Shown here one piece after another: positions 6,155 to 61,679 of a DNA stretch of 64,000 bases; the first letter of the stretch is position 1; every line of letters starts with the position of its first letter. This DNA comes from Thermoanaerobaculia bacterium (lineage in GTDB: Bacteria; Acidobacteriota; Thermoanaerobaculia; Gp7-AA8). Under the pieces are notes generated by a model. The model made no database searches and was not told where the DNA came from. It saw nothing but the letters and a program-made list of their open reading frames with translations. The DNA lies in assembly GCA_035482045.1 (NCBI GenBank), contig DATHRD010000015.1:14597-78596 (forward strand), written 5' to 3'. Made by a program: the position numbers and the translations under genes.

Positions 6155-6194
6155 AATTGCCAATAGGGTTTCTTCACGGAGACCTGCGTTTCCT

Positions 6195-10694: not shown

Positions 10695-12164
10695 CTACAC
10701 CCGCGCGAAGCGACGTTCCGCCGCCTCTTCGAACACCTCGTACCAGAACTTCGCCATGATGTTCTCTGCGAGTTGCAGCCTGTAGTCGGCGGAGCCCCGC
10801 ACGTCGCTGATCGGCTTGATCTCGTCGCGGGCGATGCGGCCGGCGTGCTCGAAGGTATCAAGGGTGGCCGTCTTGCCGGCCAGGAAGGCTTCCGTGTGCG
10901 GGAGGCGGATGACGGTAGGGGCGACGCCGCCGTAGGCGATGATGGCGTGGTCGATCCGATCGCCGCTGATTGCCAATCGAATGGCGGCGGTGAAGGCGGA
11001 GATGTCGAGATCCTTGCGTCGCGAGACCTTGTAGAGCTTGAGCGTGTCGCGGACGATGGGGATGCGAACGCTGGTGATGATCTCGTCGGGATGGAGATCG
11101 AACTTCCGGTATCCGAGGTAGAAGCGGTCGATCGGAACGGTGCGAGTGCCGCCGTTCAGCGCGAGGGTGGCGCCGGCGACGAAGAGATAAGGCAACGTGT
11201 CGGCGATTGGAGAGCCGTTGGCGATGTTGCCGACCAGCGTTCCGGCGTTCTTGATCTGAGGTGAGCCGAACACGGCCAGGATGCCCGCCAGCTCGGGGAT
11301 GCGATCGGCGATGAACGTCTCGAAGTCGGCGAGCGTCGCATTCGCGCCGGCGACGATCGCGCCGTCTTCTTCGCGCAACTCGTTGAGCGATGCGATCTTC
11401 GACAGTGACAGCATCGCCGGCGCGGCGAGGTTCCGCTTGTTGACCCAGACGCCGACGTCGGTCCCCCCCTGCACGATCGTGCATCCGGGATGGCCGCGTT
11501 TGAAGGCGATTGCCTCGTCGAGCGTGGCCAGCGCGCAGAAGGAGCCGACCTCCACGGAATCGCTTGCATCCGGAAGATCGGGATAGCGGTCGCGCATCTT
11601 GCTGATCGGCGCGCCGTCGATCGCCAGCGCGGCCTTGATGATCGGCTCGTAGCCGGTGCAGCGGCAGAGGTTTCCGGTCAGCCCGTCACGTACCTGTTTT
11701 TCATCGACCCGGTCACAGCGCTCGAACATTCCGGCCATGGCCATGACGAAGCCGGGCGTGCAGTAGCCGCACTGCGCGCCGTGGCAACGAACCATGGCCT
11801 CCTGAACAGGATGGAGAACGTTTTTACGCGGAGACGCGGAGACGCGGAGGGAGTCCTCTTTTCTCCGCGTCTCCGCGCCTCCGCGTGAAACGGTTTTCGT
11901 TTCGCTCAATCCTTCCACCGTGACGATCGATGATCCATCGAGCTGCGCGAGCGAAAGGATGCAGGCGTTGACCGGACGATAGTCGGCATCGGCCGTGCGC
12001 CGGGTCAATACCGTGCAGGCGCCGCAATCCCCTTCCTCGCAGACGATCTTCGTCCCAGTGGCAGCGACATCCTGTCGAAGATAGTTCGCGAGGGTCTCGA
12101 AGGCGACATCGCCGGCGATGCGATGTTCACGGCCGTTGATGTGGATGAGGATGTGGTCGCGCAC
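10695..12164 (-). CDS. xdhA: xanthine dehydrogenase small subunit (2Fe-2S and FAD-binding)
   Basis: EEGDCGACTV and CGYCTPGFVM ferredoxin motifs followed by an FAD-binding domain. Contains an unusual in-frame palindromic segment (separate feature). Confidence 0.85.
   Translation of the reverse strand: MRDHILIHINGREHRIAGDVAFETLANYLRQDVAATGTKIVCEEGDCGACTVLTRRTADADYRPVNACILSLAQLDGSSIVTVEGLSETKTVSRGGAETRRKEDSLRVSASPRKNVLHPVQEAMVRCHGAQCGYCTPGFVMAMAGMFERCDRVDEKQVRDGLTGNLCRCTGYEPIIKAALAIDGAPISKMRDRYPDLPDASDSVEVGSFCALATLDEAIAFKRGHPGCTIVQGGTDVGVWVNKRNLAAPAMLSLSKIASLNELREEDGAIVAGANATLADFETFIADRIPELAGILAVFGSPQIKNAGTLVGNIANGSPIADTLPYLFVAGATLALNGGTRTVPIDRFYLGYRKFDLHPDEIITSVRIPIVRDTLKLYKVSRRKDLDISAFTAAIRLAISGDRIDHAIIAYGGVAPTVIRLPHTEAFLAGKTATLDTFEHAGRIARDEIKPISDVRGSADYRLQLAENIMAKFWYEVFEEAAERRFARV
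11826..11888. repeat. near-perfect 24-bp-stem hairpin embedded in frame in the xdhA interdomain linker
   Basis: cgcggagacgcggagacgcggaggga gtcctctttt ctccgcgtctccgcgcctccgcg. Encodes the low-complexity segment VSRGGAETRRKEDSLRVSASPRKN. Confidence 0.8.
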
Positions 12165-12166
12165 GT

Positions 12167-13498
12167 CTACAGCCGCACGATCCCGTTATACGTCTCCGGC
12201 CGCCTGTCCCGATAGAACTGCCACGTATTGCGGACTTCGCGGATCTTGTCCATATCCAGATCCGCGGTCACGAGCGCGTCCGCATCGCGAGGGCCCACGG
12301 CCAGCATCTGGCCACGCGGATCGCAGAAGTAGCTCTGGCCGTAGAACTCGCCGATGTTCCATGGCGCCTCGTAACCAACGCGATTGATGGCGCCGACGAA
12401 GTAGCCGTTGGCCACCGCGTGCGCCGGCTGCTCGAGCTTCCAGAGGTACTCCGAGAGACCGGCTACCGTCGCGGAAGGGTTCATCACGATTTCCGCTCCG
12501 GCCAGGCCCAACTCCCGGGCGCCCTCGGGGAAGTGGCGGTCGTAGCAGATGTAGACGCCGACCTTGGCGTAGGCCGTATCGAACACCGGGTACCCGAGGT
12601 TGCCGGGACGGAAGTAGAACTTCTCCCAGAAACCGGGCGCGACGTGCGGAATGTGGTTCTTACGGTACTTGCCGAGGTACGTGCCGTCGGCGTCGATCAC
12701 GGCGGCGGTGTTGTAGTAGACGCCGGTCGACTCTTCCTCATACAGCGGCACGATGATGACCATGCTGTATTTCTTGGCGTACTCCTGCATCAGCTTCGTG
12801 GTCGGACCGTCCGGGATCCTCTCCACGGAGTCGTACCAACGCGTGCTCTGCTCGGCGCAGAAGTAAGGGCCGGTGAAGATCTCCTGCATGCAGAGGACCT
12901 GAACGCCCTCGGCGCCGGCCTGGTCGACATACTTGAGCGTGCGCTCAGTCTGGGCCTCGCGGATCTTCTCGAGCGATTCGCTCGTGTCACAGGCCAGGGA
13001 CGTCTGAATCAAACCACCTTTAACGATTCGGGACATGTGTTTTCTCTCCGATTGGGGCTCGCGGATTATACCGGCACGGCCGGTAGCGTTGGTCGCCCGA
13101 GGCTCCGCCACAACGTGCGCGTAATCAACGTTTTCGCGCGGAGCTTCGTCGGCGACGATGATCGTCGGTTGTGGCGGCTCCGGGGGCGGAGGTGGGGGTG
13201 CTGGCTGCGGCACCGGCTCCGGTTCAATGATCGGCAACGGTTCCGGATCGGCGTCCGGCAACGGCTCGGGATCTTCGGGAGGAGGTTCTGCGTAGGTCGG
13301 ACTCTCAGTCCGACCGGGCGGTGGTACGACCTCGGACGCGCGGTCGGATTGGAGGTCGGACTGGAGAGTCCGACCTCCGTTCGTCCGACCTACGTTGGCC
13401 TCGTCTGCCTTCTCGCGTTCCGCGTTCTTCCGCCGCCATGACCCGCCGGCGATGATGATGACGACTGCAACAAGGATGAGGATGGTGATGTAGGTCAT
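12167..13498 (-). CDS. beta-ureidopropionase-like CN-hydrolase (N-carbamoyl amidohydrolase), possibly with an N-terminal membrane anchor and Pro-rich linker
   Basis: Catalytic domain motifs: YRKNHIP, PVFDT, ICYDRHFP, GAEIVMNPSAT. Two candidate starts. ATG 13498 overlaps the NCS1 stop (ATGA) and gives a TM helix plus Pro-rich region. ATG 13036 is preceded by TATAAT and GGAGAG. Confidence 0.75.
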   Translation of the reverse strand: MTYITILILVAVVIIIAGGSWRRKNAEREKADEANVGRTNGGRTLQSDLQSDRASEVVPPPGRTESPTYAEPPPEDPEPLPDADPEPLPIIEPEPVPQPAPPPPPPEPPQPTIIVADEAPRENVDYAHVVAEPRATNATGRAGIIREPQSERKHMSRIVKGGLIQTSLACDTSESLEKIREAQTERTLKYVDQAGAEGVQVLCMQEIFTGPYFCAEQSTRWYDSVERIPDGPTTKLMQEYAKKYSMVIIVPLYEEESTGVYYNTAAVIDADGTYLGKYRKNHIPHVAPGFWEKFYFRPGNLGYPVFDTAYAKVGVYICYDRHFPEGARELGLAGAEIVMNPSATVAGLSEYLWKLEQPAHAVANGYFVGAINRVGYEAPWNIGEFYGQSYFCDPRGQMLAVGPRDADALVTADLDMDKIREVRNTWQFYRDRRPETYNGIVRL

Positions 13499-15169: not shown

Positions 15170-15415
15170 ACAACACCATCGAGAATGGCGATGTCGCCAA
15201 GAAAGATGGCGATGTTGCCATCGAACATGGCGATGTTGCCTTCGAAAATGGCGATATCGCCCCCAAAGATGGTGATTTGCCAAAAAAGATGGCGATGTCG
15301 CCCCCAAAGACGGCGATGTTGCCATCAAGGTTGATGATGTTGCCAAAAAAATGATGATGTCGCCAAGAAAAATGGCGAGGTTGTCATCCGAAGTGAGGAC
15401 GTTGCCATCACTCTC
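15170..15415. repeat. tandem array of about 11 degenerate 21-bp units, each containing the palindrome ATGGCGATGTTGCCAT
   Basis: gatggcgatgttgccatcgaac / atggcgatgttgccttcgaaa / atggcgatatcgcccccaaa ... Low-GC relative to the flanks. Lies upstream of the NCS1 permease gene and downstream of the dihydropyrimidinase gene. Confidence 0.8.
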
Positions 15416-15482: not shown

Positions 15483-16868
15483 CTACCTCGGAGAAAACGC
15501 CTGTCCCCGTTTGAGGAACTGCCCCTTCCCAGCCCGTCCGACGTACTTTCCCTCTTCGATCACCAGCTCGCCACGCGAAAGCACCGTCTTGGTTACCCCG
15601 CGAACCCGGCGCCCCTCGTAGCAGGAGTAGTCGACGTTCATGTGGTGGGTCCTGGCGCTGATGGTCATCTCTTCGTCCGGATCGAAGATGACGATGTCGG
15701 CGTCGCTGCCGACGGCGATCGTTCCTTTGCGTGGGAAGAGGCCGAAGATCTTCGCGGCCGCGGTCGACGTGATCTCGACGAAACGGTTGAGCGAGATGCG
15801 CCCCTCGGCCACGCCGCCGTCGTAGACGAGCGACATCCGGTTCTCCACGCCCGGCCCGCCGTTGGGGATCTTGGAGAAGTCGTTCTTGCCGAGCTCCTTC
15901 TGCTCTTTCATGCAGAACGGGCAGTGGTCGGTCGAGACGACCTGCAGGTCGTTGAACTTCAGCCCGCGCCACAGCTTGTCCTGGTTCCACTTATCGCGAA
16001 TGGGCGGCGTCATCACGTACTTGGCGCCTTCGAATCCGGGCTGTTCGTAGACGCTGTAGTCGAGGAAGAGGTACTGCGGGCAGGTCTCGGCGAAGGCGTT
16101 GATGCCCATATCGCGCGCCCGCGTCACTTCCTGCAGCGAGTCGTCGCAACTGAGATGGACGATGTAGACCGGCGCGTCCGCCATCTCGGCGAGAGCGATG
16201 GCGCGATGAACGCCCTCCGCCTCCGCTTTGGTAGGTCTCGTCAGGGCGTGGTATTTCGGCGCCGTCTTCCCCTCGGCCAGCGCCTTCTTGACGATGGCAT
16301 CGATGACGACGCCGTTCTCGGCGTGCATGCAGATCAACCCGCCGTTCTCACCCGCCGTCCCCATGGCCTTGAAGATCGTAGCGTCGTCGACGAGGAACAC
16401 TCCCGGATAGGCCATGAAGAGCTTGAAGCTCGACACCCCTTCGTCGATCATCCCCTTCATCTCCGGCAACCGCTCGTCCGGCAGATCGGTACAAATGAGA
16501 TGGAACCCGTAGTCGATCGACGTCTTTCCCTCGGCCTTGGCGTGCCATACGTCGACCGCCTGCCGCAGCGACTGTCCCTTGTACTGCACGGCGAAGTCGA
16601 TGATCGTCGTCGTCCCCCCGTGCGCCGCCGCGATCGTGCCGGTCTCGAACGTGTCGGATGCCGAGGTTCCACCGAACGGCAGTTCCATGTGCGTGTGCGG
16701 ATCGATCCCGCCGGGGATGACGAGCCGCCCCCTGGCATCGATGACCTTGTCGGCCTGAGCGTCGATCGACTTCCCGATCATGGCGATCGTCCCGTCCTCG
16801 ATGAGGATGTCCGCGCGGTAGTCGTCGACGGCGGTGACGATGCGACCGTTCTTGATGAGGGTGGTCAT
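15483..16868 (-). CDS. dihydropyrimidinase / D-hydantoinase
   Basis: MTTLIKNGRIVTA...IPGGIDPHTHM. Cyclic amidohydrolase, 461 aa. Confidence 0.85.
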   Translation of the reverse strand: MTTLIKNGRIVTAVDDYRADILIEDGTIAMIGKSIDAQADKVIDARGRLVIPGGIDPHTHMELPFGGTSASDTFETGTIAAAHGGTTTIIDFAVQYKGQSLRQAVDVWHAKAEGKTSIDYGFHLICTDLPDERLPEMKGMIDEGVSSFKLFMAYPGVFLVDDATIFKAMGTAGENGGLICMHAENGVVIDAIVKKALAEGKTAPKYHALTRPTKAEAEGVHRAIALAEMADAPVYIVHLSCDDSLQEVTRARDMGINAFAETCPQYLFLDYSVYEQPGFEGAKYVMTPPIRDKWNQDKLWRGLKFNDLQVVSTDHCPFCMKEQKELGKNDFSKIPNGGPGVENRMSLVYDGGVAEGRISLNRFVEITSTAAAKIFGLFPRKGTIAVGSDADIVIFDPDEEMTISARTHHMNVDYSCYEGRRVRGVTKTVLSRGELVIEEGKYVGRAGKGQFLKRGQAFSPR

Positions 16869-17200
16869 GGCTGGACTCCTTGGTTCAAGTAGCGCTCGAT
16901 GATCGCTTTCAGTTTGGGCAAATCTTCAGTCGCGGTGTCCCACACGCGATCATTGTCGATGTCGAAGTAAGAATGAATGAGGTGGTTGCGCATTCCGACG
17001 ACTTCGGGCCAGGGAATCTCAGGCAGCTCGGCGCGCACTGCCATTCCGATGCGTGCCGCTGCCTCGCCGACAATTTCAATCGATTTCACGATTGCGAGTG
17101 CGAGCTGGTCATCTCCGTCCAGATCAGCGCGGGTGCGGCCGGCAATGAATCGCTCGACACGCCCTGCGGATTCGACGATGTGACGGAGGCGCTCGATGTC
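16865..17200 (-). CDS. hepT: HepT-like HEPN toxin (DUF86) with no canonical start codon across its N-terminal homology
   Basis: Rx4HxY motif (MRNHLIHSYFDID). Family-like N-terminal sequence DIERLRHIVESAGRVERFIAGRTRADLDGDDQLALAIV continues in frame upstream of the annotated GTG (17089), up to the MntA stop. That stretch has no ATG, GTG or TTG. Confidence 0.6.
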   Translation of the reverse strand, partial: DIERLRHIVESAGRVERFIAGRTRADLDGDDQLALAIVKSIEIVGEAAARIGMAVRAELPEIPWPEVVGMRNHLIHSYFDIDNDRVWDTATEDLPKLKAIIERYLNQGVQP

Positions 17201-17501
17201 AGGCGGCGGAATACTGCACCTCGGCCGAATGAACGACTTGGTCGCGGAAATAGCGGCTCAGCTCTGCCGGTGTTCTGAGGTCAACCTTTCGCCCAAGCCG
17301 CTCACCGAGCTCGATCTCCATGCCCGCCATGGCGATGTATCCCACCCGCGCCCCTTCTTCGAACTCCACCAGCACATCGACATCGCTCTCCGGCCGAAAA
17401 CGGTCTGTCAGCACGGAGCCGAAAAGAGCCAGCTTGCGAATGTGGTTTCGCTTGCAGAACTCCGAAACGAACGCCGGATCGAGCTGAATATGCGCCGTCA
17501 T
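17199..17501 (-). CDS. mntA: MntA-like minimal nucleotidyltransferase antitoxin
   Basis: LFGSVLTDRFRPESDVDVLVEF (GS...DxD nucleotidyltransferase motif). Alternative starts up to 17552. Confidence 0.7.
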   Translation of the reverse strand: MTAHIQLDPAFVSEFCKRNHIRKLALFGSVLTDRFRPESDVDVLVEFEEGARVGYIAMAGMEIELGERLGRKVDLRTPAELSRYFRDQVVHSAEVQYSAA

Positions 17502-17578
17502 CGCACCGTGCATTCTAGCGCGATGCCTCAATTCGGGCGCCGTCGCCGGCATGGAGGCCGCCGTTTCGCTGCGCAGCT

Positions 17579-18879: not shown

Positions 18880-19076
18880 CGGTTGCGGGGTCGCGCGGCA
18901 GCGTGATTGCGCGGTCTCGCGGATTCGGTTGCTGAGTCGCTGGGTTACTGAGTTGCTGAGTCTACGGAAGCTGCCCAGCAACCCAGCAACCCCAGCAACC
19001 CAGCAACCCCAGCAATCCAGCAACTCAGCAACTCAGCAACCCAGCACCCCGAGACCGCGCAGCCGCGAGACCGCGT
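18880..19076. repeat. long imperfect inverted repeat made of GTTGCTGAG / CCCAGCAAC short tandem units, flanked by GCGGTCTCGCGG and CGCGAGACCGCG
   Basis: Left arm gcgcggtctcgcggattcggttgctgagtcgctgggttactgagttgctgagtc. Right arm ccagcaacccagcaaccccagcaacccagcaaccccagcaatccagcaactcagcaactcagcaacccagcaccccgagaccgcgcagccgcgagaccgcg. Confidence 0.8.
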
Positions 19077-20976: not shown

Positions 20977-21000
20977 GAGCGGCCATCCTCCTACGCATTC

Positions 21001-21040
21001 GGGGCGCGGCGACTCACCCTCCGCCGCGCCCCACTTTTTG
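21001..21040 (+). terminator. rho-independent terminator
   Basis: ggggcgcggcg actcaccctc cgccgcgcccc acttttt: 11-bp perfect stem followed by a T-run. Confidence 0.7.
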
Positions 21041-21076
21041 CGGTTCCGCGGTCTCGCAGGTTTCGCGGTCTCGCGG
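21041..21076. repeat. direct repeats of the cgcggtctcgc motif
   Basis: cggttccgcggtctcgcaggtttcgcggtctcgcgg. Confidence 0.6.
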
Positions 21077-21189
21077 TAAGGCGGCACGGACAAGAGTGCC
21101 TGTGCCTGAAAAGAAGGTTGCCGCGCGACGGCGCAACCTCGCGACCTCGTCTGCTATCCTTTGAGCTGTCGCCGTTTCGGAGGATTTCA

Positions 21190-22589: not shown

Positions 22590-22734
22590 GTGGTTGCTGA
22601 GTTGCAAGGTTGCTGGGTCTCTCGGCAGCGCGGTCTCGCAGTAGCGCGGCGGCCACGAGCAGAGACCGCGAGACTTCGAAACCGCGAGACTTCGAGACCC
22701 AGCAACCCAGCAACCCGCATCACAGCAACCCGCA
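22590..22734. repeat. inverted repeat element combining GTTGCTG / CAGCAAC units with GCGGTCTCG / CGAGACCGC cores
   Basis: gttgctgagttgcaaggttgctgggtctc...gcggtctcg ... cgagaccgcgagacttcgaaaccgcgagacttcgagacccagcaacccagcaacccgcatcacagcaacccgcatcacag. Confidence 0.8.
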
Positions 22735-23382
22735 TCACAGCCCTTCCAGCGGCAAATCGAGCAGCTCGAACTTATCCCAGCCGCGAAAGTCGAAGTGCCA
22801 CCATTCGGATGGCAATGGGTCGAAGCCGTGGCTGATCATGGCCTCCCGCAGCTTGGCGCGATTCGCGAGAACCTCGGCCGGCAGGTCGTTGAAGTCCTGG
22901 CGCGCCCGAGGGGTGAAGTCGTCGTAGCCGGTGGGCATCGGCAGCTCGCGGCCGGTGTGCAGATCGATGAGCGTCAGATCGACGGCCGCGCCGCGGTTGT
23001 GACGCGAGCCTTTGGCCGGGTCGGCGACGAAGTCGGGATTGCGGATCGGTTTCCACATCTGTACAGTCACGCGATAGGGCCGATAGCCGTCGAAGATCTT
23101 CAACCCCAGCCCCTGGCGCGCCAGATCGCGCTCGACATCGTGCAGTGCGATCGCGGCCGGGCGGCGCAGGAAGACTCGCGGCACCGGATACAACTGCTCG
23201 TGCATGAAGTTGTTCGTGGTGGCGTAGCGCACGTCACGCGGGAGGTCGGTGATCTCGACCAGCCGTTTGTCGGGGTCGGCAGCCACGAGCCGGTCGTACT
23301 CGGCGACATCGCGGACGACGGGCGGATGCGTCGTCGCGCATGCGGTCGCAAGGAGCAGCAATAGGGCGAGGGCTCTTCTCAT
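22735..23382 (-). CDS. D-Ala-D-Ala dipeptidase (VanX/DdpX, M15 family) lipoprotein
   Basis: SRHNRGAAVDLTL and EWWHFD motifs. Lipobox LLLLATAC. Confidence 0.75.
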   Translation of the reverse strand: MRRALALLLLLATACATTHPPVVRDVAEYDRLVAADPDKRLVEITDLPRDVRYATTNNFMHEQLYPVPRVFLRRPAAIALHDVERDLARQGLGLKIFDGYRPYRVTVQMWKPIRNPDFVADPAKGSRHNRGAAVDLTLIDLHTGRELPMPTGYDDFTPRARQDFNDLPAEVLANRAKLREAMISHGFDPLPSEWWHFDFRGWDKFELLDLPLEGL

Positions 23383-24569
23383 CGCGACATCCCCGGCGCC
23401 ACTTTCGTCATGAAGTCTTCCATATTCTTCATCACCCGCTTCGAATCGTGGTTATTGAAGTCGAACCAGAGCATCAGCCGGTCGTCAGGGTGGAAACGCT
23501 CGGTGATCTGCTTCGCGATCATCTCGGCATTGCCGATGAGGGCGTTTTCCGTGGCACGCTGCACCTTCACCTCATCGAGCGTCCCCTCGAGCGCGCGCCA
23601 GTAATTGATCAATGCCGCCCGTGCCTCCTCGGCCGCACGCGGCGGATCGTCGTGGATGAAGACCAGGACCGTGCGAGGCATCAGCCGCCGCTGCCAGCCG
23701 CCGCCGTCCGGATGATATGCGGTAGCCATCCGCTCGTTCGTCTTCTGGATTTCGTCGCCCGGCGTGATCGATAGATTGAAAACGCCGACCGGCAGGATCG
23801 TGTTGGCGAAGACCTGCGTTGCCGCATCGTGCGAGCCGATCGACAGCCGCAGCAGCTCCATCCGCGATTCCCGCGGCACGATCTTCAGATTCGGAAACAC
23901 CCAGCGCGGCGCCAACGGAATCTCGTCGGCGCTCTGTCCGCAAGCGTCCACGACACGCTGCCAGTCGCCATCGGAGCGAAAGTCTTTCGGTTGAAGCGAG
24001 CGATTCGCGATCATCGACGAGCTCAGAGTCTCCCCGCGCAGCAAACGGAGAAAGATCTCCGTCGCCTCTTCGAAGATTTTGTTTTTCACCACCGGCCAGG
24101 CAGCTTCCTCCACCGGCGTGCGCGGCACGATCCCGTACGGGATGTTGATGAACGGAAAGCGGCCCGCCGCGAAGCCGATCGTGAGCAGGCGCCGCTCCTT
24201 CGGATCGAGCCCGTGGAGAGCGAGAAACGTCTTGATCCTCTCCGCTGCCGCGATTGGGCCGCCGTTGCAGAGGATGTTCATGATCGCCGATCCGACGCCG
24301 ATCTGCTTCGTCCTTGCGAAGATCCGATGCCCGAGCTGCAGGATGTCGGTATTGAGCCCGATCTCTCCGACGAAATGCGGGATGACCGCTCCCCGATTCG
24401 TCTTCTGAACCTCCGTCGACAGATGACTCTCCGCCACCCATGCCGTCCCGAACCCGAGCCGGTCCGCGAGGATCACCTGCTCGAAGAAGTTCTCGAACAT
24501 GACCCGCTCGCTCGGCATGTAGCCGTTGACCTCGGTCTGCGAGATGGAGAAGAAGACGTCGAGCTCCAT
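23379..24569 (-). CDS. LLM-class (luciferase-like) flavin-dependent oxidoreductase
   Basis: MELDVFFSISQTEV...DRLGFGTAWVAEHH-like N-terminus. Start chosen at internal M (24569). Confidence 0.65.
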   Translation of the reverse strand: MELDVFFSISQTEVNGYMPSERVMFENFFEQVILADRLGFGTAWVAESHLSTEVQKTNRGAVIPHFVGEIGLNTDILQLGHRIFARTKQIGVGSAIMNILCNGGPIAAAERIKTFLALHGLDPKERRLLTIGFAAGRFPFINIPYGIVPRTPVEEAAWPVVKNKIFEEATEIFLRLLRGETLSSSMIANRSLQPKDFRSDGDWQRVVDACGQSADEIPLAPRWVFPNLKIVPRESRMELLRLSIGSHDAATQVFANTILPVGVFNLSITPGDEIQKTNERMATAYHPDGGGWQRRLMPRTVLVFIHDDPPRAAEEARAALINYWRALEGTLDEVKVQRATENALIGNAEMIAKQITERFHPDDRLMLWFDFNNHDSKRVMKNMEDFMTKVAPGMSR

Positions 24570-24589
24570 GGCTTCGGGGATCGTATAGG

Positions 24590-24665
24590 AATGGGGGTGG
24601 GGAGTGGCGGGTGGGGAGTCGGAGAACCTATCATTCGGAATGACAGATATCCCCACCCTCCACTC
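24590..24665. repeat. G-rich / C-rich palindrome of the GGGGTGGGGAGTGG family in a divergent intergenic region
   Basis: atgggggtggggagtggcgggtggggagtcgg ... tccccaccctccactccc, followed by TATAAT at about 24668-24673. Confidence 0.75.
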
Positions 24666-24679
24666 CCTATAATCCCCGC

Positions 24680-25744
24680 GTGCCCTTCAACGAAAACCAC
24701 CCCGTCAACTTCGCGCGGGCGATGCCGAACTGGCAGCCGCTGGTCGAATATCGGCGGAATGGCGTCGCGGAGAACACGATCCACGGCGCTGTGTCGTGGG
24801 TTTCGGGGAGGAGCGTCGTCCATTCGTTCGGCGGCAACGTCGAGGTCTACGGGCGGTCGATGGTCAAGCCGATCATGATGAAGGTCTTCGTCCGCGAGTT
24901 TGCGCGGGCGCTCAATGGCGAGCAGAAGGCCATTTCCGTTGCCTCTCACAACGGTGACACCGAGCATGTGCGCGTGGCCCGGTCGATCCTCATGCAGGGC
25001 GAATGGGGCCTCATGCAGGCTCCGCTCGACGTCCCCCTCGTGCAGTTCGGCCGGCAGGTGCGTCGTCCGCGCCGCTGGTATCACTGCTGCTCGGGAGAGC
25101 ACGCGGCCATCCTTCGCGGCTGCAAGCTGAAAGGGTGGTCCCGCGTCGGCTACGTCTGGCCCCATCACCCCTTCTTCCAGGAGTATCTGGCCTACATTCG
25201 CCACGTCCTCGGCGGCGAGTGGAAGCAGGGGACGATCGCCAAGGACGGCTGCGGATTGCCGACGGTTTCGATGACCGTCACCGACCTGGCCAGGCTCTTC
25301 GCCAACCTCGTCACCGAGAAAAACGACGACTGGATCTGGCAGGCCATGATCGAACATCCCGACCTCATCGGCGGCTTCAATCGTCTCGACTCGACCGTCC
25401 TCAAGGCCTGTCACGGTCGCGTGCTGGCCAAGGAAGGCGCTGACGGACTCCTCGGGCTGGCCATCGAACATCCCGAGTATCCCGAGGGCCTCGGCGTGGT
25501 CGTGAAGATCGCGCACGGCTGGAACCCGCAAGCGACGTGGTACATCGCCCGTTACATCCTCGGCGTTTTGGGGTTCGAGTTCCGCAATCCCTACAAACTG
25601 CGCCGCCAGAAAGCGTTCATCGTCCCCGAGGTCATCCCGCCGGGTCTCAGAGACCGGATGGCCGCCATCGTCCCGTGGGACTCATGGGATCCGGACATCG
25701 ACAAATGGGAGTTCGAGCCGGAGGAGTTCCTTGCCGCTCGCTAA
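24680..25744 (+). CDS. asparaginase_II (PF06089)-like protein
   Basis: HCCSGEHAA and DGCGLPT resemble the Cys-Lys-Cys zinc-site motifs of Rhizobium-type asparaginase II. GTG 24680 lies 7 nt after the TATAAT. Alternative ATG at 24722. Confidence 0.5.
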   Translation: MPFNENHPVNFARAMPNWQPLVEYRRNGVAENTIHGAVSWVSGRSVVHSFGGNVEVYGRSMVKPIMMKVFVREFARALNGEQKAISVASHNGDTEHVRVARSILMQGEWGLMQAPLDVPLVQFGRQVRRPRRWYHCCSGEHAAILRGCKLKGWSRVGYVWPHHPFFQEYLAYIRHVLGGEWKQGTIAKDGCGLPTVSMTVTDLARLFANLVTEKNDDWIWQAMIEHPDLIGGFNRLDSTVLKACHGRVLAKEGADGLLGLAIEHPEYPEGLGVVVKIAHGWNPQATWYIARYILGVLGFEFRNPYKLRRQKAFIVPEVIPPGLRDRMAAIVPWDSWDPDIDKWEFEPEEFLAAR

Positions 25745-36094: not shown

Positions 36095-37087
36095 CTACCT
36101 CTTCGCGCGGAGCGCGGCCTCGTGAGCACGCGCACGATCGAGCGCCTTTTCGAGGGTGCGAACGACCTCGCTCGCGGAGGCCAGCAGCGACTCCAGCTCC
36201 ACCCGCTCCGCGCCCGTGTCGTGAATCTCCGTGGCACCCGCGGCAAACGGGTCGTCTGCCCCGTCCGGCTCGACCTCGACGGCGACCACGGCGCCGAAGG
36301 GATCTTCCTCTTCAGCTACGTGGACTTCGATCGGTTCCGCCTCGAACGGTGAGACCGTGACCGTCTCGTCGGCGTCGAACGACGGCTGGGCAGGCGTCGT
36401 TTTCATCGACAGCTTCGGAGTTCCCGCCGACGTCGGCGTCACGCCCGATCTCGCTGACATATCCGGCGCGCCAAGCTCCGGCTCCTCGTGCAACGTCGTG
36501 TCGACGTTGTTCTTGAGATTGTCGAGGATGCGGGATACCGCGGCGCGGAGCGTAGCAGTGACGCCGCTACCGGTGATGGCCGCCGCCTCAACGGTCGGTA
36601 CTCCGTTCGGATTCAAATACTCGTTCATCACCTCGACCGAGTCGATGTTCGGCAGGTCACGCTTGTTGTACTGGTAAACCAGGGCCACTTTCCCCGGATC
36701 GATGCGGTTGATCCGGAGATTCGTCTTCAGGTTCTCCAGGCTGTCGAGGTTCGAGTCGCGCATCGTCGACTGCGAGTCGGCCACGAAGACCACGCCGTCG
36801 GCACCGCGCAGCACGAGCTTTCTCGTGGCGTTGTAGAACACCTGGCCGGGCACGGTGTAGAGCTGCACGCGTACTTTCTGACCGGCGATCGTGCCCAGCT
36901 CCATCGGCATGAAGTCGAAAAAGAGGGTCCGGTCCGTCTCCGTCGACATCGAGATCATCTTGCCCTTGTTGTCGAGCTTCGGATTTCCGTAGATCTTCTC
37001 GAGATTCGTGGTCTTCCCGCACAGGCCTGGCCCGTAATAGACGAGCTTGACCGTCACCTCGTTGATCGCCTTGTTGATCAGGACCAT
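36095..37087 (-). CDS. mglA: MglA-family Ras-like small GTPase with a long acidic C-terminal extension
   Basis: KLVYYGPGLCGKTTNLEKI...STETDRTLFFDF...LYTVPGQVFY...YQYNKRDLP is near-identical to MglA core motifs. About 130 aa of extra acidic C-terminus. No mglB adjacent. Confidence 0.8.
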   Translation of the reverse strand: MVLINKAINEVTVKLVYYGPGLCGKTTNLEKIYGNPKLDNKGKMISMSTETDRTLFFDFMPMELGTIAGQKVRVQLYTVPGQVFYNATRKLVLRGADGVVFVADSQSTMRDSNLDSLENLKTNLRINRIDPGKVALVYQYNKRDLPNIDSVEVMNEYLNPNGVPTVEAAAITGSGVTATLRAAVSRILDNLKNNVDTTLHEEPELGAPDMSARSGVTPTSAGTPKLSMKTTPAQPSFDADETVTVSPFEAEPIEVHVAEEEDPFGAVVAVEVEPDGADDPFAAGATEIHDTGAERVELESLLASASEVVRTLEKALDRARAHEAALRAKR

Positions 37088-37099
37088 GGCGGGATTAGC

Positions 37100-37240
37100 T
37101 TACCTGATGTTGGGGGGTGGGGAGTGGGGGTGGGGAGTGGGAGAGGGAGTCGCGGTGGGAAGCTACTGCTCTGAAATCCAACTCCCAACTGCCACTCCCA
37201 CCCCCCACTCCCCACTCCCCACCCCCCACCCCGCGATATC
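37100..37240. repeat. G-rich / C-rich long palindrome of the GGGGTGGGGAGTGG family between mglA-like and eda-like genes
   Basis: ggggggtggggagtgggggtggggagtgggagagggag ... ctcccaactgccactcccaccccccactccccactccccaccccccacccc. Confidence 0.8.
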
Positions 37241-37248
37241 CTTTCCTC

Positions 37249-37926
37249 ATGTCCCGCAAAGAACTGTTCGAAAAAGTGTCGCTGGAGCAGATCATCGGTG
37301 TCGTGCGTGAAGAGAGCGTCGAGGCCGCTGAGTCGGTGGCCGAGGCGTATGCGCGCAACGGTATCCGCCTCCTGGAGGTGACGTTGACGACGCCCAAGGC
37401 GTTCGACCTCATTGCCCGATTCGCGCAGAAGTACGCGCCGCTCGACGTCGTCATCGCCGCGGGCACCGTGCGCAGTTCAAACGACGCCGCACAGGCACAG
37501 CGGGCTGGCGCAAGGGTCATCGTCTCGCCCCACACCGACGTGGGCGTGATCGAGTACGCGAATGAGAACGATCTTCTCTGCGTCGCCGGCGCCGGTACAG
37601 CCACGGAAATCGTTCGTGCATTCGAGGCTGGCTGCGACATCGTGAAGGTGTTCCCGGCGCTCTACCTCGGCGGTCCCGACTACATCCGAACACTGCGCGG
37701 TCCGATTCGCGACGTGCCGATGCTGGCCGGCGGCCCGGTGCCGCTCGACGCGATCGAAAGCTATCTCGATGCCGGCTGCATCGCCGTGAACCTCGGAGCC
37801 TCGCTGGCCGTGCCGGAGTTGGTGCAGACCGAGCAGTGGGAGGAGATCGGCCGCCGCGCGCTTCTGGCGACCTCGATTGTGCAGTCGCGCAACGTCGCCG
37901 TCGAGTCCGACTCTTACGTCCACTGA
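37249..37926 (+). CDS. eda: KDPG / 4-hydroxy-2-oxoglutarate aldolase family protein
   Basis: IRLLEVTLTTP, IAAGTVRS, GTATEIVRAFEAGCDIVKVFPA. Confidence 0.7.
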   Translation: MSRKELFEKVSLEQIIGVVREESVEAAESVAEAYARNGIRLLEVTLTTPKAFDLIARFAQKYAPLDVVIAAGTVRSSNDAAQAQRAGARVIVSPHTDVGVIEYANENDLLCVAGAGTATEIVRAFEAGCDIVKVFPALYLGGPDYIRTLRGPIRDVPMLAGGPVPLDAIESYLDAGCIAVNLGASLAVPELVQTEQWEEIGRRALLATSIVQSRNVAVESDSYVH

Positions 37927-39868: not shown

Positions 39869-39879
39869 CCGAGGCCCCA

Positions 39880-40215
39880 GAGTCGATGTTTTGTCTCCCG
39901 GAGCAAAAGCTTTGACTCCCAGAGCCCAAGTCTTGACTCCCAGAGTCGAAGTTTTGACTGACAGAGTCGAAGTTTTGACTCCCGGAGTCGAAGTTTTGAC
40001 TCCCGGAGTCGCACTTTAGACTCCCAGAGTCGCACTTTAGACTCCCAGAGTCGCACTTTAGACTTCCGGAGTCGCACTTTAGACTTCCGGAGTCGCACTT
40101 TAGACTTCCGGAGTCGCACTTTAGACTCCCAGAGTCGCACTTTAGACTCTCAGAGTCGCACTTTAGACTCTCAGAGTCGCACTTTAGACTCTCAGAGTCG
40201 ATGCTTAGGCTCACT
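39880..40215. repeat. tandem array of about 15 copies of a 21-bp unit GAGTCGCACTTTAGACTCCCA, forming continuous alternating palindromes GAGTC...GACTC
   Basis: Early copies are the variant gagtcgaagttttgactccc[ag]. Later copies are gagtcgcactttagact[ct]cc[ag]. Lies in a convergent 3-prime/3-prime intergenic region. Confidence 0.85.
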
Positions 40216-41663: not shown

Positions 41664-42872
41664 GTGTCTCTCGCCAGACGTCTCGGCCTTCCTGAAGAGA
41701 CGCCCAAACCGGTCGCGCTGGCAGTCCTCTTTTACCTCGGTCATCTTTTCTGCGCCGGTTGGGCGGCCTCGTCCGAGATATTCGCGTTCGCGACGATGGT
41801 GACGGTCGGCTATGCGCTCTACCGGCGCCTGCTGGTCCCCTCGTTTCACATCCTCTACGTTCCGTTGGCGTTGTATGGACTCGACTCGACGGTCTCCTCG
41901 TTCGTGGCGGGCCGTCACATCCACACCTTCGGCGAGAGCGCGCTCTGGGGAAAGATGTTTCTCTTCCCGGCGGCGCTGATTCTCTTTCGAAACGTCCCAC
42001 GGAGCCGCGTGGCGGCTCTGCGGATGCTTCTCATCTTCGGCGTCTTCTCGGCGGGCTACGGCTTTGTGCAGTATTTTGCGCTGAGCGCACACCACGATCT
42101 CGATCACCGCATCACCGGCCCCGCGGCGCACGTGATGACTCTGTCGGGATTGCTCCTGCCCGTGGCGCTTTTGTTTCTCGTACTCTGGATCTACGACCTG
42201 CGCAATATGTTGCTCATCGCCGGCGTGGCGATGACGCACTTTGCTCTGCTGCTCACGTTCACACGCAGCGTGTGGCTTGGCTGGGTCGCGGCCGTGGCCG
42301 TCCTGCTCGTGCTGAAGTGGCCGAAAGCGTTGGCCTGGGCGGTGCCGGTGGCCATTCTGGCCGTCAGTTTCGCTCCGCTGCCCTTTTTCAGCAGGGTTGT
42401 CTCCAGCTTTGACGTGAGGCAGTCGTCGAACCTCGATCGAATCCGGATGGCGGAAGCCGGCATCGAGATCATCAAGGACTACCCGCTTTTCGGCGTAGGT
42501 CCGGCGAACGTCAAGGAAACCTATCCCCTTTACCGCAAGCACGATGCGCCCCGCTTCCGTATCCCACACCTGCACAACAACGTCATCCAGCTCTGGGCTG
42601 AGCGGGGGATCCTCGGGCTGGTGGCCTACCTCTTCCTCCAGTTTCTCTTCCTGCGCGCGTGTGCCCATGCTTGGGGGGGGCCGGCCACGAAGTTCGCGGA
42701 GGCCGGCGTCGCCGTGGCGGTCGGGCTGGCCGTGGCCGGCCTGTTCGAGTTCAACTTCGGCGATACCGAAGTCTTCTGGATGCTGCTGGACGTCTTCGCG
42801 CTCGTGATCGCCTTCATCGAACGGCCTCAGCCGTCGAATGAAGCCCTGTCGGCTGGTGTTCCGGGATCGTAA
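41664..42872 (+). CDS. O-antigen ligase / Wzy_C-domain polytopic membrane protein
   Basis: IPHLHNNVIQLWAERGILG matches the H..N....E.G signature of WaaL/Wzy_C. Confidence 0.6.
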   Translation: MSLARRLGLPEETPKPVALAVLFYLGHLFCAGWAASSEIFAFATMVTVGYALYRRLLVPSFHILYVPLALYGLDSTVSSFVAGRHIHTFGESALWGKMFLFPAALILFRNVPRSRVAALRMLLIFGVFSAGYGFVQYFALSAHHDLDHRITGPAAHVMTLSGLLLPVALLFLVLWIYDLRNMLLIAGVAMTHFALLLTFTRSVWLGWVAAVAVLLVLKWPKALAWAVPVAILAVSFAPLPFFSRVVSSFDVRQSSNLDRIRMAEAGIEIIKDYPLFGVGPANVKETYPLYRKHDAPRFRIPHLHNNVIQLWAERGILGLVAYLFLQFLFLRACAHAWGGPATKFAEAGVAVAVGLAVAGLFEFNFGDTEVFWMLLDVFALVIAFIERPQPSNEALSAGVPGS

Positions 42873-42974
42873 CCTTATCCCTGCCAGCCAGCGTCTGGAG
42901 AAGAAAACCGGTTGTAACCTTTCCCCGCGAGCTTGCGTCAAGTAGAGAGAACCGGGCCCGTAACCTTTCCCAGC

Positions 42975-50236: not shown

Positions 50237-50249
50237 TCGGCATGCTCCC

Positions 50250-50406: not shown

Positions 50407-50409
50407 GCA

Positions 50410-61620: not shown

Positions 61621-61679
61621 ACCGCGAGACCGCATAACCTCGGCCCATGACCCACCTGCCGAAACTGCGCGACCGCGAA

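What the first reader, a model, noticed from the sequence alone, without database searches (positions are those of the whole stretch)
24590..24673. G-rich/C-rich palindromes (GGGGTGGGGAGTGG family) in two divergent promoter regions, with G-quadruplex potential (second copy at 37100-37240)
Both copies sit between divergently oriented genes (LLM / asparaginase_II-like, and mglA-like / eda-like). Both have a G-tract arm with four or more GGGG runs on one strand, a complementary C-tract arm, and, in the first copy, a TATAAT immediately downstream. The structure can form either a long hairpin or a G4/i-motif pair. Two copies with the same motif suggest a shared regulatory or structural element.
Basis: seen in the sequence. 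Interest (0 to 1): 0.6.

Follow-up and report, generated by a model that had tools for sequence, protein, structure and literature searches.

The report
G-rich heptamer-repeat hairpins between back-to-back promoters
The two G-rich/C-rich palindromes are real, but they are two copies of one variety of a very common, fast-changing hairpin-forming repeat that fills the gaps between genes in this soil acidobacterium, not a conserved G-quadruplex switch.

Summary
Both spacers hold a G-rich arm, a loop and a complementary C-rich arm built from GGGGNGT units. Hairpin z-scores are -3.7 and -8.0, and G4Hunter reaches 2.6 and 3.1. Each palindrome lies between two outward-facing -10 boxes placed 6-10 nt from the start codons, so the flanking genes are probably leaderless or nearly so.

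These are not special elements. The window, from a soil Thermoanaerobaculia (Acidobacteriota) contig, holds 16 significant palindromes. In 1.7 Mb of related genomes I found 338 more. Many have arms made of tandem 7-nt or 8-nt units of many unrelated sequences. The G-rich arm comes first in about 90% of those with skewed arms.

In orthologous spacers the -10 boxes are conserved, but the middle is a different palindrome or is empty (38-49 bp). At the GTPase/aldolase spacer, 26 of 31 versions keep a palindrome and only 13 keep any G4 motif.

The closest known relatives are the G4-forming heptamer repeats of Xanthomonas and Nostoc (Rehm 2015), which also occur as inverted pairs. The most likely reading is selfish or neutral hairpin-prone spacer DNA with at most a generic structural effect. 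A side finding: a related palindrome is inserted in frame in a xanthine dehydrogenase gene.

The parts
23379..24569 (-). Luciferase-like monooxygenase gene, left neighbour of copy 1
   Evidence: Pfam Bac_luciferase. Same gene call in the public contig. ATG on the minus strand at 24569-24567.
24570..24679 (.). Whole divergent spacer 1 (110 bp)
   Evidence: ssDNA fold -26.8 kcal/mol, z = -3.67.
24580..24589 (-). -10-like box of the monooxygenase gene (CCTATACGAT on the minus strand), 10-12 nt from its ATG
   Evidence: GATCGTATAGG is conserved at this position in 8 of the 9 relatives with the divergent arrangement; L006 has GATCCTATAG and L008 GATCGTATGCG. That it acts as a promoter is inferred.
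24593..24619 (+). G-rich arm of copy 1, two 13-14-nt GGGTGGGGAGT blocks (heptamer-type units GGGGNGT)
   Evidence: G4 motif 24593-24616, G4Hunter 2.6.
24620..24649 (.). Loop of copy 1, unrelated to the loop of copy 2
24650..24667 (+). C-rich arm of copy 1
   Evidence: 94% complementary to 24600-24617. G4 motif on the minus strand at 24651-24685.
24668..24673 (+). TATAAT -10 box of the asparaginase-II-like gene, 6 nt before GTG 24680 (leaderless geometry)
   Evidence: TATAAT lies 6-7 nt from the start codon in the window and all 14 relatives. The TSS is inferred, not mapped.
24680..25744 (+). Asparaginase_II-family gene, right neighbour of copy 1
   Evidence: Pfam PF06089, E = 3.5e-51. The N-terminus MPFNENHP is conserved.
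36095..37087 (-). Small Ras/Arf-like (MglA-like) GTPase gene, left neighbour of copy 2
   Evidence: Pfam Arf/Ras, weak. 80 homologous loci.
37088..37248 (.). Whole divergent spacer 2 (161 bp)
   Evidence: ssDNA fold -54.2 kcal/mol, z = -7.95.
37097..37102 (-). TAAGCT -10-like box of the GTPase gene, 9 nt from its ATG
   Evidence: TAAGCTA is present 9-11 nt from the ATG in 25 of 31 orthologous spacers. In most of the rest, AAGCTTA sits further upstream.
37112..37159 (+). G-rich arm of copy 2 (GGGGAGT/GGGGGT units)
   Evidence: G4Hunter 3.08.
37160..37176 (.). Loop of copy 2
37177..37233 (+). C-rich arm of copy 2 (ACTCCCC units)
   Evidence: Inverted-repeat score 30.
37237..37242 (+). TATCCT -10-like box of the KDPG-aldolase gene, 6 nt before ATG 37249
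   Evidence: GATATC(C/T)TT or GATAATCT lies 5-8 nt from the ATG in 30 of 31 orthologous spacers.
37249..37926 (+). KDPG/KHG aldolase (eda-like) gene, right neighbour of copy 2
   Evidence: Pfam PF01081, E = 3.9e-34.

Best explanation
The two elements are copies of a lineage-specific family of G-rich heptamer-repeat palindromes. The unit is GGGGNGT, with the G-rich arm 5' and the C-rich arm 3' on both strands.

This family is one variety of a very abundant class of hairpin-forming repeats, many with arms of tandem 7-8-nt units. The class colonises the intergenic spacers of this soil Thermoanaerobaculia (Acidobacteriota) genome, and occasionally a coding linker.

In both places the palindrome is lodged between the -10 boxes of two back-to-back promoters whose transcripts start at, or within a few nucleotides of, the start codon. 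It therefore lies upstream of both promoters and is probably not transcribed.

The palindrome is not part of the conserved promoter and is dispensable. I infer that these elements persist as selfish or near-neutral DNA through three processes:
- units are gained, lost and homogenised by replication slippage;
- the two arms are kept complementary by intrastrand (hairpin-templated) correction;
- families spread between spacers by copying or insertion.

Any effect on the flanking genes is most likely generic and independent of sequence. It could set the distance between the two RNA polymerase sites, or offer a cruciform or G4/i-motif-prone sink for the negative supercoils made by divergent transcription.

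Shown: the anatomy, abundance, polarity, turnover and promoter-core conservation. Inferred: leaderless transcription, the slippage and template-switch dynamics, mobility of the G-rich family, and neutrality.
For: Anatomy and statistics of both copies.

Source: a metagenome contig. Relatives are Thermoanaerobaculia MAGs.

Abundance of the class:
- TRF and RNAfold show many inverted arrays of 7-8-nt units in the window.
- My inverted-repeat scan finds 16 palindromes scoring >=14 in the window. Markov shuffles give 0-2, and none reaches 16.
- There are 209 in 1.27 Mb of genome loci, with arm periods of 7 (50 cases) and 8 (16 cases).
- This replicates in 410 kb of metagenome loci: 129 palindromes, period 7 in 43 and period 8 in 24.

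Polarity: the G-rich arm comes first in 110 against 16 cases and in 82 against 8.

Position: palindromes begin a median of 3 nt after stop codons and end a median of 18 nt before the next start.

Turnover at both loci: promoter cores are conserved while the middles are unrelated or absent. Flanking CDS are 82-92% identical in DNA, yet the spacers give only 25-56-nt partial matches.

Families cluster within genomes: 16.9% of same-record pairs share >=3 heptamers, against 6.0% of pairs from different records (p = 5e-13). The same families recur at non-orthologous loci.

Direct evidence for gain and loss of a related family: the xdhA linker exists in none, half and full states, and five copies with shared termini sit in five different contexts.

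Leaderless geometry is common in the window.

Precedent: Rehm et al. 2015, PMC4692102.
Against: - The strong G-first polarity, seen in all contexts, is hard to get from a purely neutral process. It hints at a directional mechanism or function.
- Palindromes are rarer in divergent spacers (about 27% of those >=60 bp) than in co-oriented or convergent ones (about 52-54%). This suggests they are not indifferent to promoters.
- G-rich types recur at the mglA/eda spacer in the window and in relatives at 75-81% identity, always in the same orientation. This could mean retention by selection rather than recurrence.
- The two G-type copies share no loop or defined termini. Mobility of this particular family is therefore by analogy only.
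- No expression, TSS or structure-probing data exist for this uncultured lineage.
Confidence: 0.6

Rival explanations
1. G4/i-motif (or hairpin versus G4) switch. Negative supercoiling from divergent transcription extrudes G-quadruplexes on the template strands just upstream of each -10 box. This tunes both promoters, and the two loci share the regulatory device.
For: - G4 motifs occur on opposite strands in both arms, with very high G4Hunter scores (2.6 and 3.08) and an excess of G4 motifs in the window.
- The G-runs lie on the non-coding strand within 50 bp upstream of the ORFs. This is the preferred position reported for the G4-forming heptamer repeats that do form G4 in vitro.
- G-rich varieties recur at the mglA/eda spacer in several relatives.
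Against: - G4 potential is not conserved. Only 13 of 31 mglA/eda spacers have any G4 motif, and almost none of the relatives at 84-91% identity do, whereas 26 of 31 keep a palindrome.
- At the LLM/asp spacer the relatives carry (ATCTGCG)n, a MITE-like hairpin or nothing.
- The same architecture occurs with A/T-rich or mixed units such as GAATGTT, GAAACCA and AAAATTG, which cannot form G4.
- The complementary arm favours a duplex or hairpin over G4.
- Rehm et al. found such repeats under-represented between divergent ORFs and could not identify a regulatory role.
Confidence: 0.1
2. The class works at the RNA or transcription level. The palindromes would be U-tract-independent (bidirectional) terminators, insulators or 3'-end-stabilising hairpins, as proposed for REP elements. 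The two divergent-promoter copies would block antisense or read-through transcription into the neighbouring gene.
For: - The class is enriched just after stop codons (median 3 nt) in co-oriented and convergent spacers.
- The stems are long and stable (mean of 36 Watson-Crick pairs).
- A polarity that is identical on both strands fits a co-transcriptional process.
- Canonical hairpin-plus-T-run terminators are not enriched in this DNA, so some other device may terminate transcription.
Against: - There is no T-run after the stems in any context, and no terminator-like sites at either locus.
- Stem mismatches are not enriched for G.U in the sense orientation. The trend is the reverse, 98 against 148.
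- With outward-facing -10 boxes at its edges, each of the two copies lies upstream of both transcription units.
- Presence of a palindrome shows no association with the kind of start of the downstream gene.
- Empty orthologous spacers exist.
Confidence: 0.15
3. Purely local origin. Each palindrome arose in place from native sequence by slippage followed by inverted duplication, without any mobility. Shared unit sequences would reflect mutational convergence.
For: - Some arrays resemble adjacent native sequence. The (TTAGCTS)n arrays lie next to the conserved TTAGCTTA promoter core.
- The xdhA element's 3' terminus equals native coding sequence, CGTGAAAACGG, and a 'one arm only' state exists.
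- Units change in concert within arrays, for example GGGAGTG against GGGAGTC among close relatives.
- The two G-type copies have unrelated loops.
Against: - The same unit families and composite orders recur at unrelated loci within a genome more often than between genomes.
- Discrete families with conserved termini and length occur in five different contexts, including nested inside another palindrome.
Confidence: 0.15
4. Arrays of binding sites for a sequence-specific DNA-binding protein, either a regulator or a nucleoid protein that recognises GGGGNGT/ACNCCCC units, shared by the two promoter regions.
For: Tandem heptamer direct repeats are classical binding arrays for some regulators (general knowledge). 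Both copies sit at promoters, and the motif is strongly over-represented.
Against: Orthologous promoters replace the units with unrelated ones or lose them. Dozens of unrelated unit sequences share the same architecture. The flanking genes have no common function.
Confidence: 0.05

Closest known systems
G-quadruplex-forming heptamer simple sequence repeats of Xanthomonas (GGGAATC) and Nostoc (GGGGA(C/T)T): Rehm et al. 2015, PLoS One, PMC4692102
   Same: - Tandem G-rich heptamers in non-coding DNA.
- Frequent inverted pairs (70-75 per Xanthomonas genome) able to form stem-loops or cruciforms as well as G4.
- The same placement and polarity: G-runs on the coding strand within 50 bp after stop codons, often overlapping them, and on the non-coding strand within 50 bp before starts.
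- Extensive length and sequence variation between related species at the same spacers.
- No identified function.
- The unit here, GGGGAGT, is one base from Nostoc's GGGGACT/GGGGATT.
   Different: - A different phylum (Acidobacteriota, Thermoanaerobaculia) and a different unit.
- Here the G-rich variety is a minority among dozens of non-G unit sequences with the same architecture, so G4 cannot be the common denominator.
- These two copies sit between divergent ORFs, the position reported as under-represented.
- G4 formation is not tested for this unit.
REP / BIME / REPIN elements (repetitive extragenic palindromes and their inverted doublets)
   Same: Abundant intergenic hairpin-forming repeats, mostly downstream of genes. 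Families are specific to lineages, turn over rapidly and lack a coding capacity of their own. Proposed roles are in supercoiling, termination and mRNA stability (abstracts, and general knowledge).
   Different: - The arms here are built of tandem 7-8-nt units rather than one 20-40-nt imperfect palindrome.
- No GTAG/CGTC terminal tag is visible at the ends of the G-type copies.
- Copies do not share loops or fixed length.
- No RAYT transposase could be looked for with the data held.
MITE-like palindromic elements, including Rickettsia palindromic elements (RPE) that insert in frame into genes (recalled from memory: Ogata et al. 2000)
   Same: - Other families in the same window behave like MITEs, namely TGTCATCCTGAG...CTCAGGATGACA and TTTCACGCGGAG...CTCCGCGTGAAA.
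- The ACGCGGAG family has conserved termini and length and is found in five different genomic contexts.
- One copy is inserted in frame in xdhA, adding about 24 residues to a domain linker.
   Different: The G-type copies have no defined terminal inverted repeat beyond the repeated units themselves. No target-site duplication is visible, and their length is variable.
Cyanobacterial STRR heptamers and TAACTGA heptamer direct repeats (MacGregor 2015, PMC4679880)
   Same: Tandem heptamers concentrated in intergenic DNA close to start codons, with lineage-restricted unit sequences and unknown function.
   Different: Those are essentially direct arrays; only one indirect repeat was reported among 170 TAACTGA sets. 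They were proposed to act on RNA or translation. Here the defining feature is the inverted arrangement.

Membership tests
G4-forming heptamer SSR (Rehm et al. 2015 type) | Tandem units of about 7 nt, each carrying a run of >=3 G | tested here: met
   TRF periods of 6, 7 and 13 with units TGGGGAG / ACTCCCC / GGGGGTGGGGAGT. Sequence.
G4-forming heptamer SSR (Rehm et al. 2015 type) | At least four G-tracts with short loops (G4 motif) in an array | tested here: met
   G4 motifs at 24593-24616, 24651-24685(-), 37112-37147 and 37197-37232(-). G4Hunter 2.6 and 3.08.
G4-forming heptamer SSR (Rehm et al. 2015 type) | G-run on the non-coding strand within 50 bp upstream of ORFs, or on the coding strand just after stop codons | tested here: met
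   Both copies have the C-rich arm on the sense strand next to each start. Class-wide G-first polarity is 110:16 and 82:8. Compared.
G4-forming heptamer SSR (Rehm et al. 2015 type) | Unit consensus GGGNATC / GGGGA(C/T)T | tested here: not met
   The unit here is GGGGAGT / GGGGTGT / GGGGGT. It is one base from the Nostoc unit.
G4-forming heptamer SSR (Rehm et al. 2015 type) | G4 formation of the oligonucleotide in vitro (CD, K+ dependence) | not testable with these tools
   Only sequence-based prediction is available.
REP / REPIN | Short imperfect palindrome with a GTAG or CGTC tag at one end (Di Nocera et al. 2013, abstract) | tested here: not met
   No such tag at the arm ends of either copy.
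REP / REPIN | Cognate RAYT (IS200/IS605-like) transposase gene in the genome, flanked by the repeats | not testable with these tools
   Only the 64-kb window and 7-21-kb loci are held. Whole genomes (for example OY970284.1) could not be scanned.
Intrinsic (Rho-independent) terminator | GC-rich hairpin followed directly by a U/T run | tested here: not met
   No terminator-like site at either locus. No T enrichment after 209 palindromes.
MITE | Defined terminal inverted repeats, conserved internal sequence and length among copies, target-site duplication | tested here: not met
   The two G-type copies share only the repeated units. Loops and lengths differ (30 against 17 nt for the loops, 110 against 161 bp for the spacers) and there is no flanking duplication. 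The ACGCGGAG family does meet the terminal-repeat and length criteria.
Sigma-70-type promoter with leaderless transcript | -10 hexamer (TANNNT) ending 6-8 nt before the start codon, conserved among orthologues | tested here: met
   asp: TATAAT + 6-7 nt in 15 of 15 sequences. eda: TATCCT/TATCTT in 30 of 31. The GTPase and LLM boxes lie 9-12 nt from the ATG. A positional peak of TANNNT occurs at gaps of 6-10 nt (inflated by orthologues) and in many window genes.
Sigma-70-type promoter with leaderless transcript | -35 element 16-18 nt upstream, and a mapped TSS | tested here: not met
   No TTGACA-like partner was found. The -35 position is occupied by the variable palindrome arm. The TSS cannot be mapped here.

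The most novel reading that the evidence does not exclude
The G-type copies may be the visible tip of an undescribed, lineage-wide system of polar hairpin repeats. The G-rich arm is always 5', and the arms are built of 7- or 8-nt units of many sequences.

These repeats occupy about half of the longer co-oriented and convergent spacers of a bacterium that transcribes many genes without leaders. They might act as a U-tract-independent, direction-symmetric transcription stop or insulator. Alternatively, they might spread by a new microhomology- or hairpin-templated copying mechanism that can even colonise coding linkers in frame.
Probability: 0.2. Interest if true: 0.65.

Novelty: new member of a known kind. 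Interest (0 to 1): 0.4.

Why it matters
For the finding as stated, the value is corrective. A striking G4-looking motif in two promoters is not a dedicated regulator. It is one variety of a genome-wide hairpin repeat, and G4 predictions in such genomes should be read against that background.

More broadly, this uncultured soil lineage offers a dense natural series of the same spacer with different palindromes or none. It also offers a coding linker caught in none, half and full insertion states. Together with the strict G-first polarity, these could make two old questions testable: what heptamer repeats and REP-like palindromes do, and how they arise.

Tried and rejected
- RNALfold-style local folding of the whole window did not discriminate, because everything folds at 63% GC. 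I replaced it with a Watson-Crick-only inverted-repeat scan calibrated on Markov shuffles.
- Canonical -35/-10 and hairpin-plus-T-run scans found nothing at either locus and no enrichment over 20 kb.
- Rfam at gathering thresholds gave no family in the window.
- Test for RNA-level selection: there is no excess of G.U over A.C mismatches in the sense orientation, and the trend is the reverse. There are no T-runs after the stems.
- Test for coupling between palindromes and the type of downstream start (-10-only against Shine-Dalgarno) gave no signal in co-oriented spacers. The divergent class is confounded by orthologues.
- The positional -10 survey over all loci is inflated by the 80 orthologous asp starts, so I rely on the per-gene list for the window.
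- Literature searches for a description of these repeats in Acidobacteria found none.
- I considered a formal covariation count on aligned orthologous hairpins and dropped it. Repeat-built arms cannot be aligned unambiguously, so I used per-spacer significance instead.
- CRISPR was rejected for the 21-22-nt tandem arrays, which have no spacers.
Full report
**1. What is at the stated coordinates**

Copy 1 fills the 110-bp spacer 24570-24679. This spacer separates a luciferase-like monooxygenase gene (minus strand, ATG at 24569) from an Asparaginase_II-family gene (plus strand, GTG at 24680).
- It reads GATCGTATAGG, then the G arm at 24593-24619 (GGGGGTGGGGAGTGGCGGGTGGGGAGT), a 30-nt loop, the C arm at 24650-24667, TATAAT at 24668-24673, six bases, and the GTG.
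- The repeat finder gives arms that are 94% complementary.
- As single-stranded DNA the spacer folds at -26.8 kcal/mol, z = -3.67.

Copy 2 fills the 161-bp spacer 37088-37248. This spacer separates a small Ras-like (MglA-like) GTPase gene (minus strand) from a KDPG aldolase gene (plus strand).
- The G arm is at 37112-37159 and the C arm at 37177-37233.
- It folds at -54.2 kcal/mol, z = -7.95.
- It is the most stable 140-nt window of the whole 64 kb.

The motif GGGGTGGGGAGTGG with up to 2 mismatches occurs 10 times against 0.45 expected, and nine of those are in the two loci. G4 motifs lie on opposite strands in both arms, with G4Hunter peaks of 2.6 and 3.08.

The only correction is that copy 1 has G-runs of 5, 4, 3 and 4, not four GGGG runs.

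**2. The palindromes are not special to these two places**

Tandem Repeats Finder and folding of the intergenic regions show the same architecture at many other spacers in the window: a tandem array of a 7-8-nt unit, a loop, and the reverse-complement array. The unit sequences are unrelated. Examples:
- (GAATGTT)n at 4421-4520
- (GAAACCA)7 at 53631-53756
- (ACGCGGAG)3 at 11814-11898
- CGCGGTCTCG and GTTGCTGRG composites at 1044-1139, 18908-19061, 21047-21149, 22595-22719 and 58418-58485

I wrote a Watson-Crick-only inverted-repeat scan to quantify this.
- It finds 16 palindromes scoring >=14 in the window. First-order Markov shuffles give 0-2, and none reaches 16.
- Copy 2 scores 30 and copy 1 scores 15.5.

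**3. Where the window comes from, and the comparative material**

The window is identical to an ENA soil-metagenome contig.

A scan of one genome per species with the Asparaginase_II protein returned 80 loci. All are MAGs of Acidobacteriota, nearly all labelled Thermoanaerobaculia, including 'gp7 AA8' and 'Candidatus Gilichinskyi gelida'. A metagenome scan with the GTPase returned 80 more loci.

Over the window plus the genome loci (1.27 Mb) there are 209 palindromes scoring >=16.
- 73 have clearly periodic arms, with period 7 in 50 and period 8 in 16.
- There are dozens of different units, often several copies of one unit per genome. Examples are AAAATTG, AACGATG, AAGGCAG, ACAGGCTC, ACTCAGG and GGTTGGC.

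The independent metagenome loci (410 kb) give 129 distinct palindromes, with period 7 in 43 and period 8 in 24.

By context, palindromes occur as follows:
- 117 against 226 co-oriented spacers >=60 bp
- 38 against 70 convergent spacers
- 27 against 99 divergent spacers

They start a median of 3 nt after the upstream stop codon and end a median of 18 nt before the next start. No T-run follows them.

Pairs of palindromes from the same record share >=3 heptamers in 16.9% of cases. Pairs from different records do so in 6.0% (p = 5e-13). Named families also recur at non-orthologous loci.

**4. An unexpected regularity: polarity**

A palindrome reads alike on both strands, so it can be 'G-rich arm first' or 'C-rich arm first' on both.
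- G-first outnumbers C-first 110 to 16 in the genome loci and 82 to 8 in the metagenome loci.
- This holds in co-oriented, convergent and divergent spacers alike.

The two copies under study follow the rule. For both flanking genes the C-rich arm is on the sense strand next to the promoter, and the G-runs are on the template strand.

I cannot explain the polarity. It requires a process with 5'-to-3' directionality.

**5. The promoters**

All 14 relatives examined keep TATAAT 6-7 nt before the Asparaginase_II start codon, whatever lies upstream.

At the other three gene starts:
- The aldolase gene keeps TATCCT, TATCTT or TAATCT 5-8 nt before its ATG in 30 of 31 spacers.
- The GTPase gene keeps TAAGCTA 9-11 nt before its ATG in 25 of 31 spacers.
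- The monooxygenase gene keeps CCTATACGATC.

No -35 partner exists. The sequence at the -35 position is the variable palindrome arm itself.

Many other first genes in the window have a TANNNT box 6-10 nt from the start codon and no Shine-Dalgarno sequence.

From the standard -10-to-TSS distance of about 7 nt, I infer that these genes are transcribed as leaderless mRNAs or with leaders of at most a few nucleotides. It follows that each palindrome lies upstream of both transcription units. This is inference, since no TSS data exist.

**6. Orthologous spacers: conserved edges, replaceable middle**

At the monooxygenase/asparaginase spacer, the relatives with the divergent arrangement carry the following:
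- a G-type palindrome of different detail (L011, and the C arm in L003 and L016)
- (GGGAGTC)n/(GACTCCC)n (L008)
- a G-rich/CCGACT hybrid (L007)
- an (ATCTGCG)n hairpin (L013, L015)
- a 170-bp TGTCATCCTGAG...CTCAGGATGACA hairpin (L004, L010)
- only the C arm beside a 700-bp insertion (L014)
- nothing at all (L006, 38 bp, with the two -10 boxes almost touching)

In more distant relatives the monooxygenase gene is co-oriented with, and directly upstream of, the asparaginase gene. The divergent arrangement is therefore a recent inversion.

At the GTPase/aldolase spacer, 31 distinct versions range from 44 to 362 bp. They carry:
- G-type (window, L102, L105, L106, L108, L112, L115)
- GGGAGTC-type (L103, L109-111, L116)
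- CGCGGTCTCG+GTTGCTGRG composites (L086, L087, L090, L091/L146 (identical spacers), L095, L096, L098)
- (TTAGCTS)n (L089, L092, L094, L104, L107)
- (GTTGCCR)n (L093)
- (GGCTGTC)n (L100)
- TAGGTCGGAC hairpins (L083-85)
- no palindrome (L101 at 44 bp, L152 at 49 bp)

Of these, 26 of 31 have a significant palindrome. Only 13 have any G4 motif, and only 8 have one on both strands.

The flanking coding DNA is 82-92% identical to the window, while the spacers give only 25-56-nt partial matches. These relatives are different species, so the turnover is on the timescale of speciation, not of strains.

The conserved property is 'a hairpin-prone filler, G-rich arm first'. It is not the G-runs.

**7. How the elements change**

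Three patterns are visible.
- Among close relatives, arrays differ by unit-wide changes that appear in many units and in both arms. An example is GGGAGTG against GGGAGTC against GGGTGTC in L102/L115 versus L103/L116 versus L111, with loops conserved within each subgroup. This points to homogenisation within arrays and correction between arms.
- Some arrays resemble the native sequence beside them, such as (TTAGCTS)n next to the TTAGCTTA promoter core.
- A related family gives direct evidence of gain and loss.

That related family is the palindrome at 11814-11898. It lies inside an intact xanthine-dehydrogenase small-subunit gene, between the two [2Fe-2S] domains.
- Against Rhodobacter XDH chain A, a 4-residue linker is replaced by 28 residues.
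- Among homologues >=84% identical, the site exists in four in-frame states: none, 3' arm only, full palindrome, and a flank remnant.
- Copies with the same termini (AACCGTTTCACGCGGAG...CTCCGCGTGAAACGGTT) and the same three-unit arms sit in four other, unrelated contexts. One of them is nested in the loop of another palindrome.

At least that family therefore behaves as a small mobile palindrome. Whether the G-type moves in the same way is only an analogy, because its two copies in the window share units but neither loop nor defined ends.

**8. Function**

Against an RNA hairpin or terminator role:
- There are no T-runs after the stems.
- Mismatches are not biased towards G.U in the sense orientation: 98 against 148.
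- The two copies are probably untranscribed.

Against a specific regulator: the variability and empty sites described in section 6, and the unrelated functions of the flanking genes.

What remains plausible is a generic DNA-level effect.
- With 110 and 161 bp between start codons, two polymerases can occupy the facing promoters without overlap. In the 38-49-bp empty spacers they cannot (inference from a footprint of roughly -55 to +20).
- A palindrome between divergent promoters sits where negative supercoils accumulate. It could extrude as a cruciform or as G4/i-motif (inference).

The lower frequency of palindromes in divergent spacers, also noted by Rehm et al., suggests they are tolerated there rather than favoured.

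**9. Comparison with what is known**

The closest described objects are the G-rich heptamer repeats GGGAATC of Xanthomonas and GGGGA(C/T)T of Nostoc.
- They are over-represented in non-coding DNA and often occur as inverted pairs.
- They lie within 50 bp of ORF ends with the same strand rule found here.
- They vary between related species, form G4 in vitro, and have no known function.

The present elements work like these and differ in unit, phylum and setting. I file them as a new member of that kind.

They resemble REP/REPIN and MITE elements in lifestyle but fail their defining sequence features (see the membership table). I found no description of such repeats in Acidobacteria, and Rfam has nothing here.

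**10. Verdict**

The elements are ordinary for this genome: one variety of an abundant hairpin repeat.

The G4 reading is not excluded biophysically, but comparative evidence does not support it. The wider system is more interesting than the two copies themselves, because of its polar palindromes, 7/8-nt periodicity and in-frame colonisation of a coding linker.

Noticed in passing
window 11814-11898 (inside ORF 10695-12164, minus strand): An (ACGCGGAG)3/(CTCCGCGT)3 palindrome is inserted in frame in a xanthine-dehydrogenase small-subunit (XdhA-like) gene, between the two [2Fe-2S] domains. A 4-residue linker becomes 28 residues. Homologues >=84% identical show none, one-arm, full and remnant states, all in frame. 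Copies with the same termini occur at four unrelated loci in other genomes (L012, L014, L016, L104).
   Followed up: yes
window 5913-6155 and 50249-50407; also L004, L010, L012, L013 and others: These are near-perfect 155-240-bp hairpins with shared ends TGTCATCCTGAG...CTCAGGATGACA. They form a MITE-like family found in 13 records at many different loci.
   Followed up: partly
all palindromes in the window and in L003-L162: There is a strict polarity: the 5' arm is G-rich and the 3' arm C-rich in about 90% of palindromes with skewed arms, in every gene context. This is unexplained.
   Followed up: yes
window 39876-40201, 61155-61631, 15185-15407, 42861-43002: These are long direct tandem arrays in intergenic DNA: 21 nt x 15.5, 22 nt x 21.8 (upstream of a prolyl-tRNA synthetase gene), 21 nt x 9.6 and 46 nt x 3. 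They have no spacers, so they are not CRISPR. Their nature is unknown.
   Followed up: no
window gene starts, e.g. 24680, 37249, 34678, 60996(-), 61703, 59658, 41415: Many first genes have a TANNNT box 6-10 nt before the start codon and no Shine-Dalgarno sequence, while others have GGAG-type sites. Leaderless transcription seems common in this lineage.
   Followed up: partly
window 22735-24569 compared with L017-L082: The monooxygenase gene is inverted relative to more distant relatives, where it lies co-oriented directly upstream of the asparaginase-II gene. The divergent promoter pair is therefore a recent rearrangement whose two -10 regions form a small palindrome of their own.
   Followed up: partly
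window 13291-13379; L083-L085 mglA/eda spacers: These are TAGGTCGGAC...GTCCGACCTA hairpins with an internal sub-hairpin. L083 carries three tandem copies (362-bp spacer) and L115 carries a tandem duplication of a G-type palindrome.
   Followed up: partly
co-oriented spacers of window and L003-L082: Stem mismatches are more often A.C than G.U when read in the sense orientation (148 against 98, p = 0.002). This is the opposite of what selection on an RNA hairpin would give, and may reflect a strand-specific mutation bias.
   Followed up: no
window 20995-21040: A classical GC-rich hairpin is followed by TTTTT just after the stop codon at 20976. The organism therefore has at least some canonical terminators, next to a T-less short-unit palindrome at 21047-21149.
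   Followed up: no
window 16865-17513: A HepT-like / nucleotidyltransferase (MNT-type) toxin-antitoxin gene pair lies next to purD, according to the Pfam marks on the public contig.
   Followed up: no
L102, L103, L112, L115, L116 (mglA upstream): In one subgroup the GTPase gene has a GGAGG Shine-Dalgarno-like site and the AAGCTTA core lies about 20 nt further upstream. Here the gene appears to have a leader, unlike in the window.
   Followed up: no
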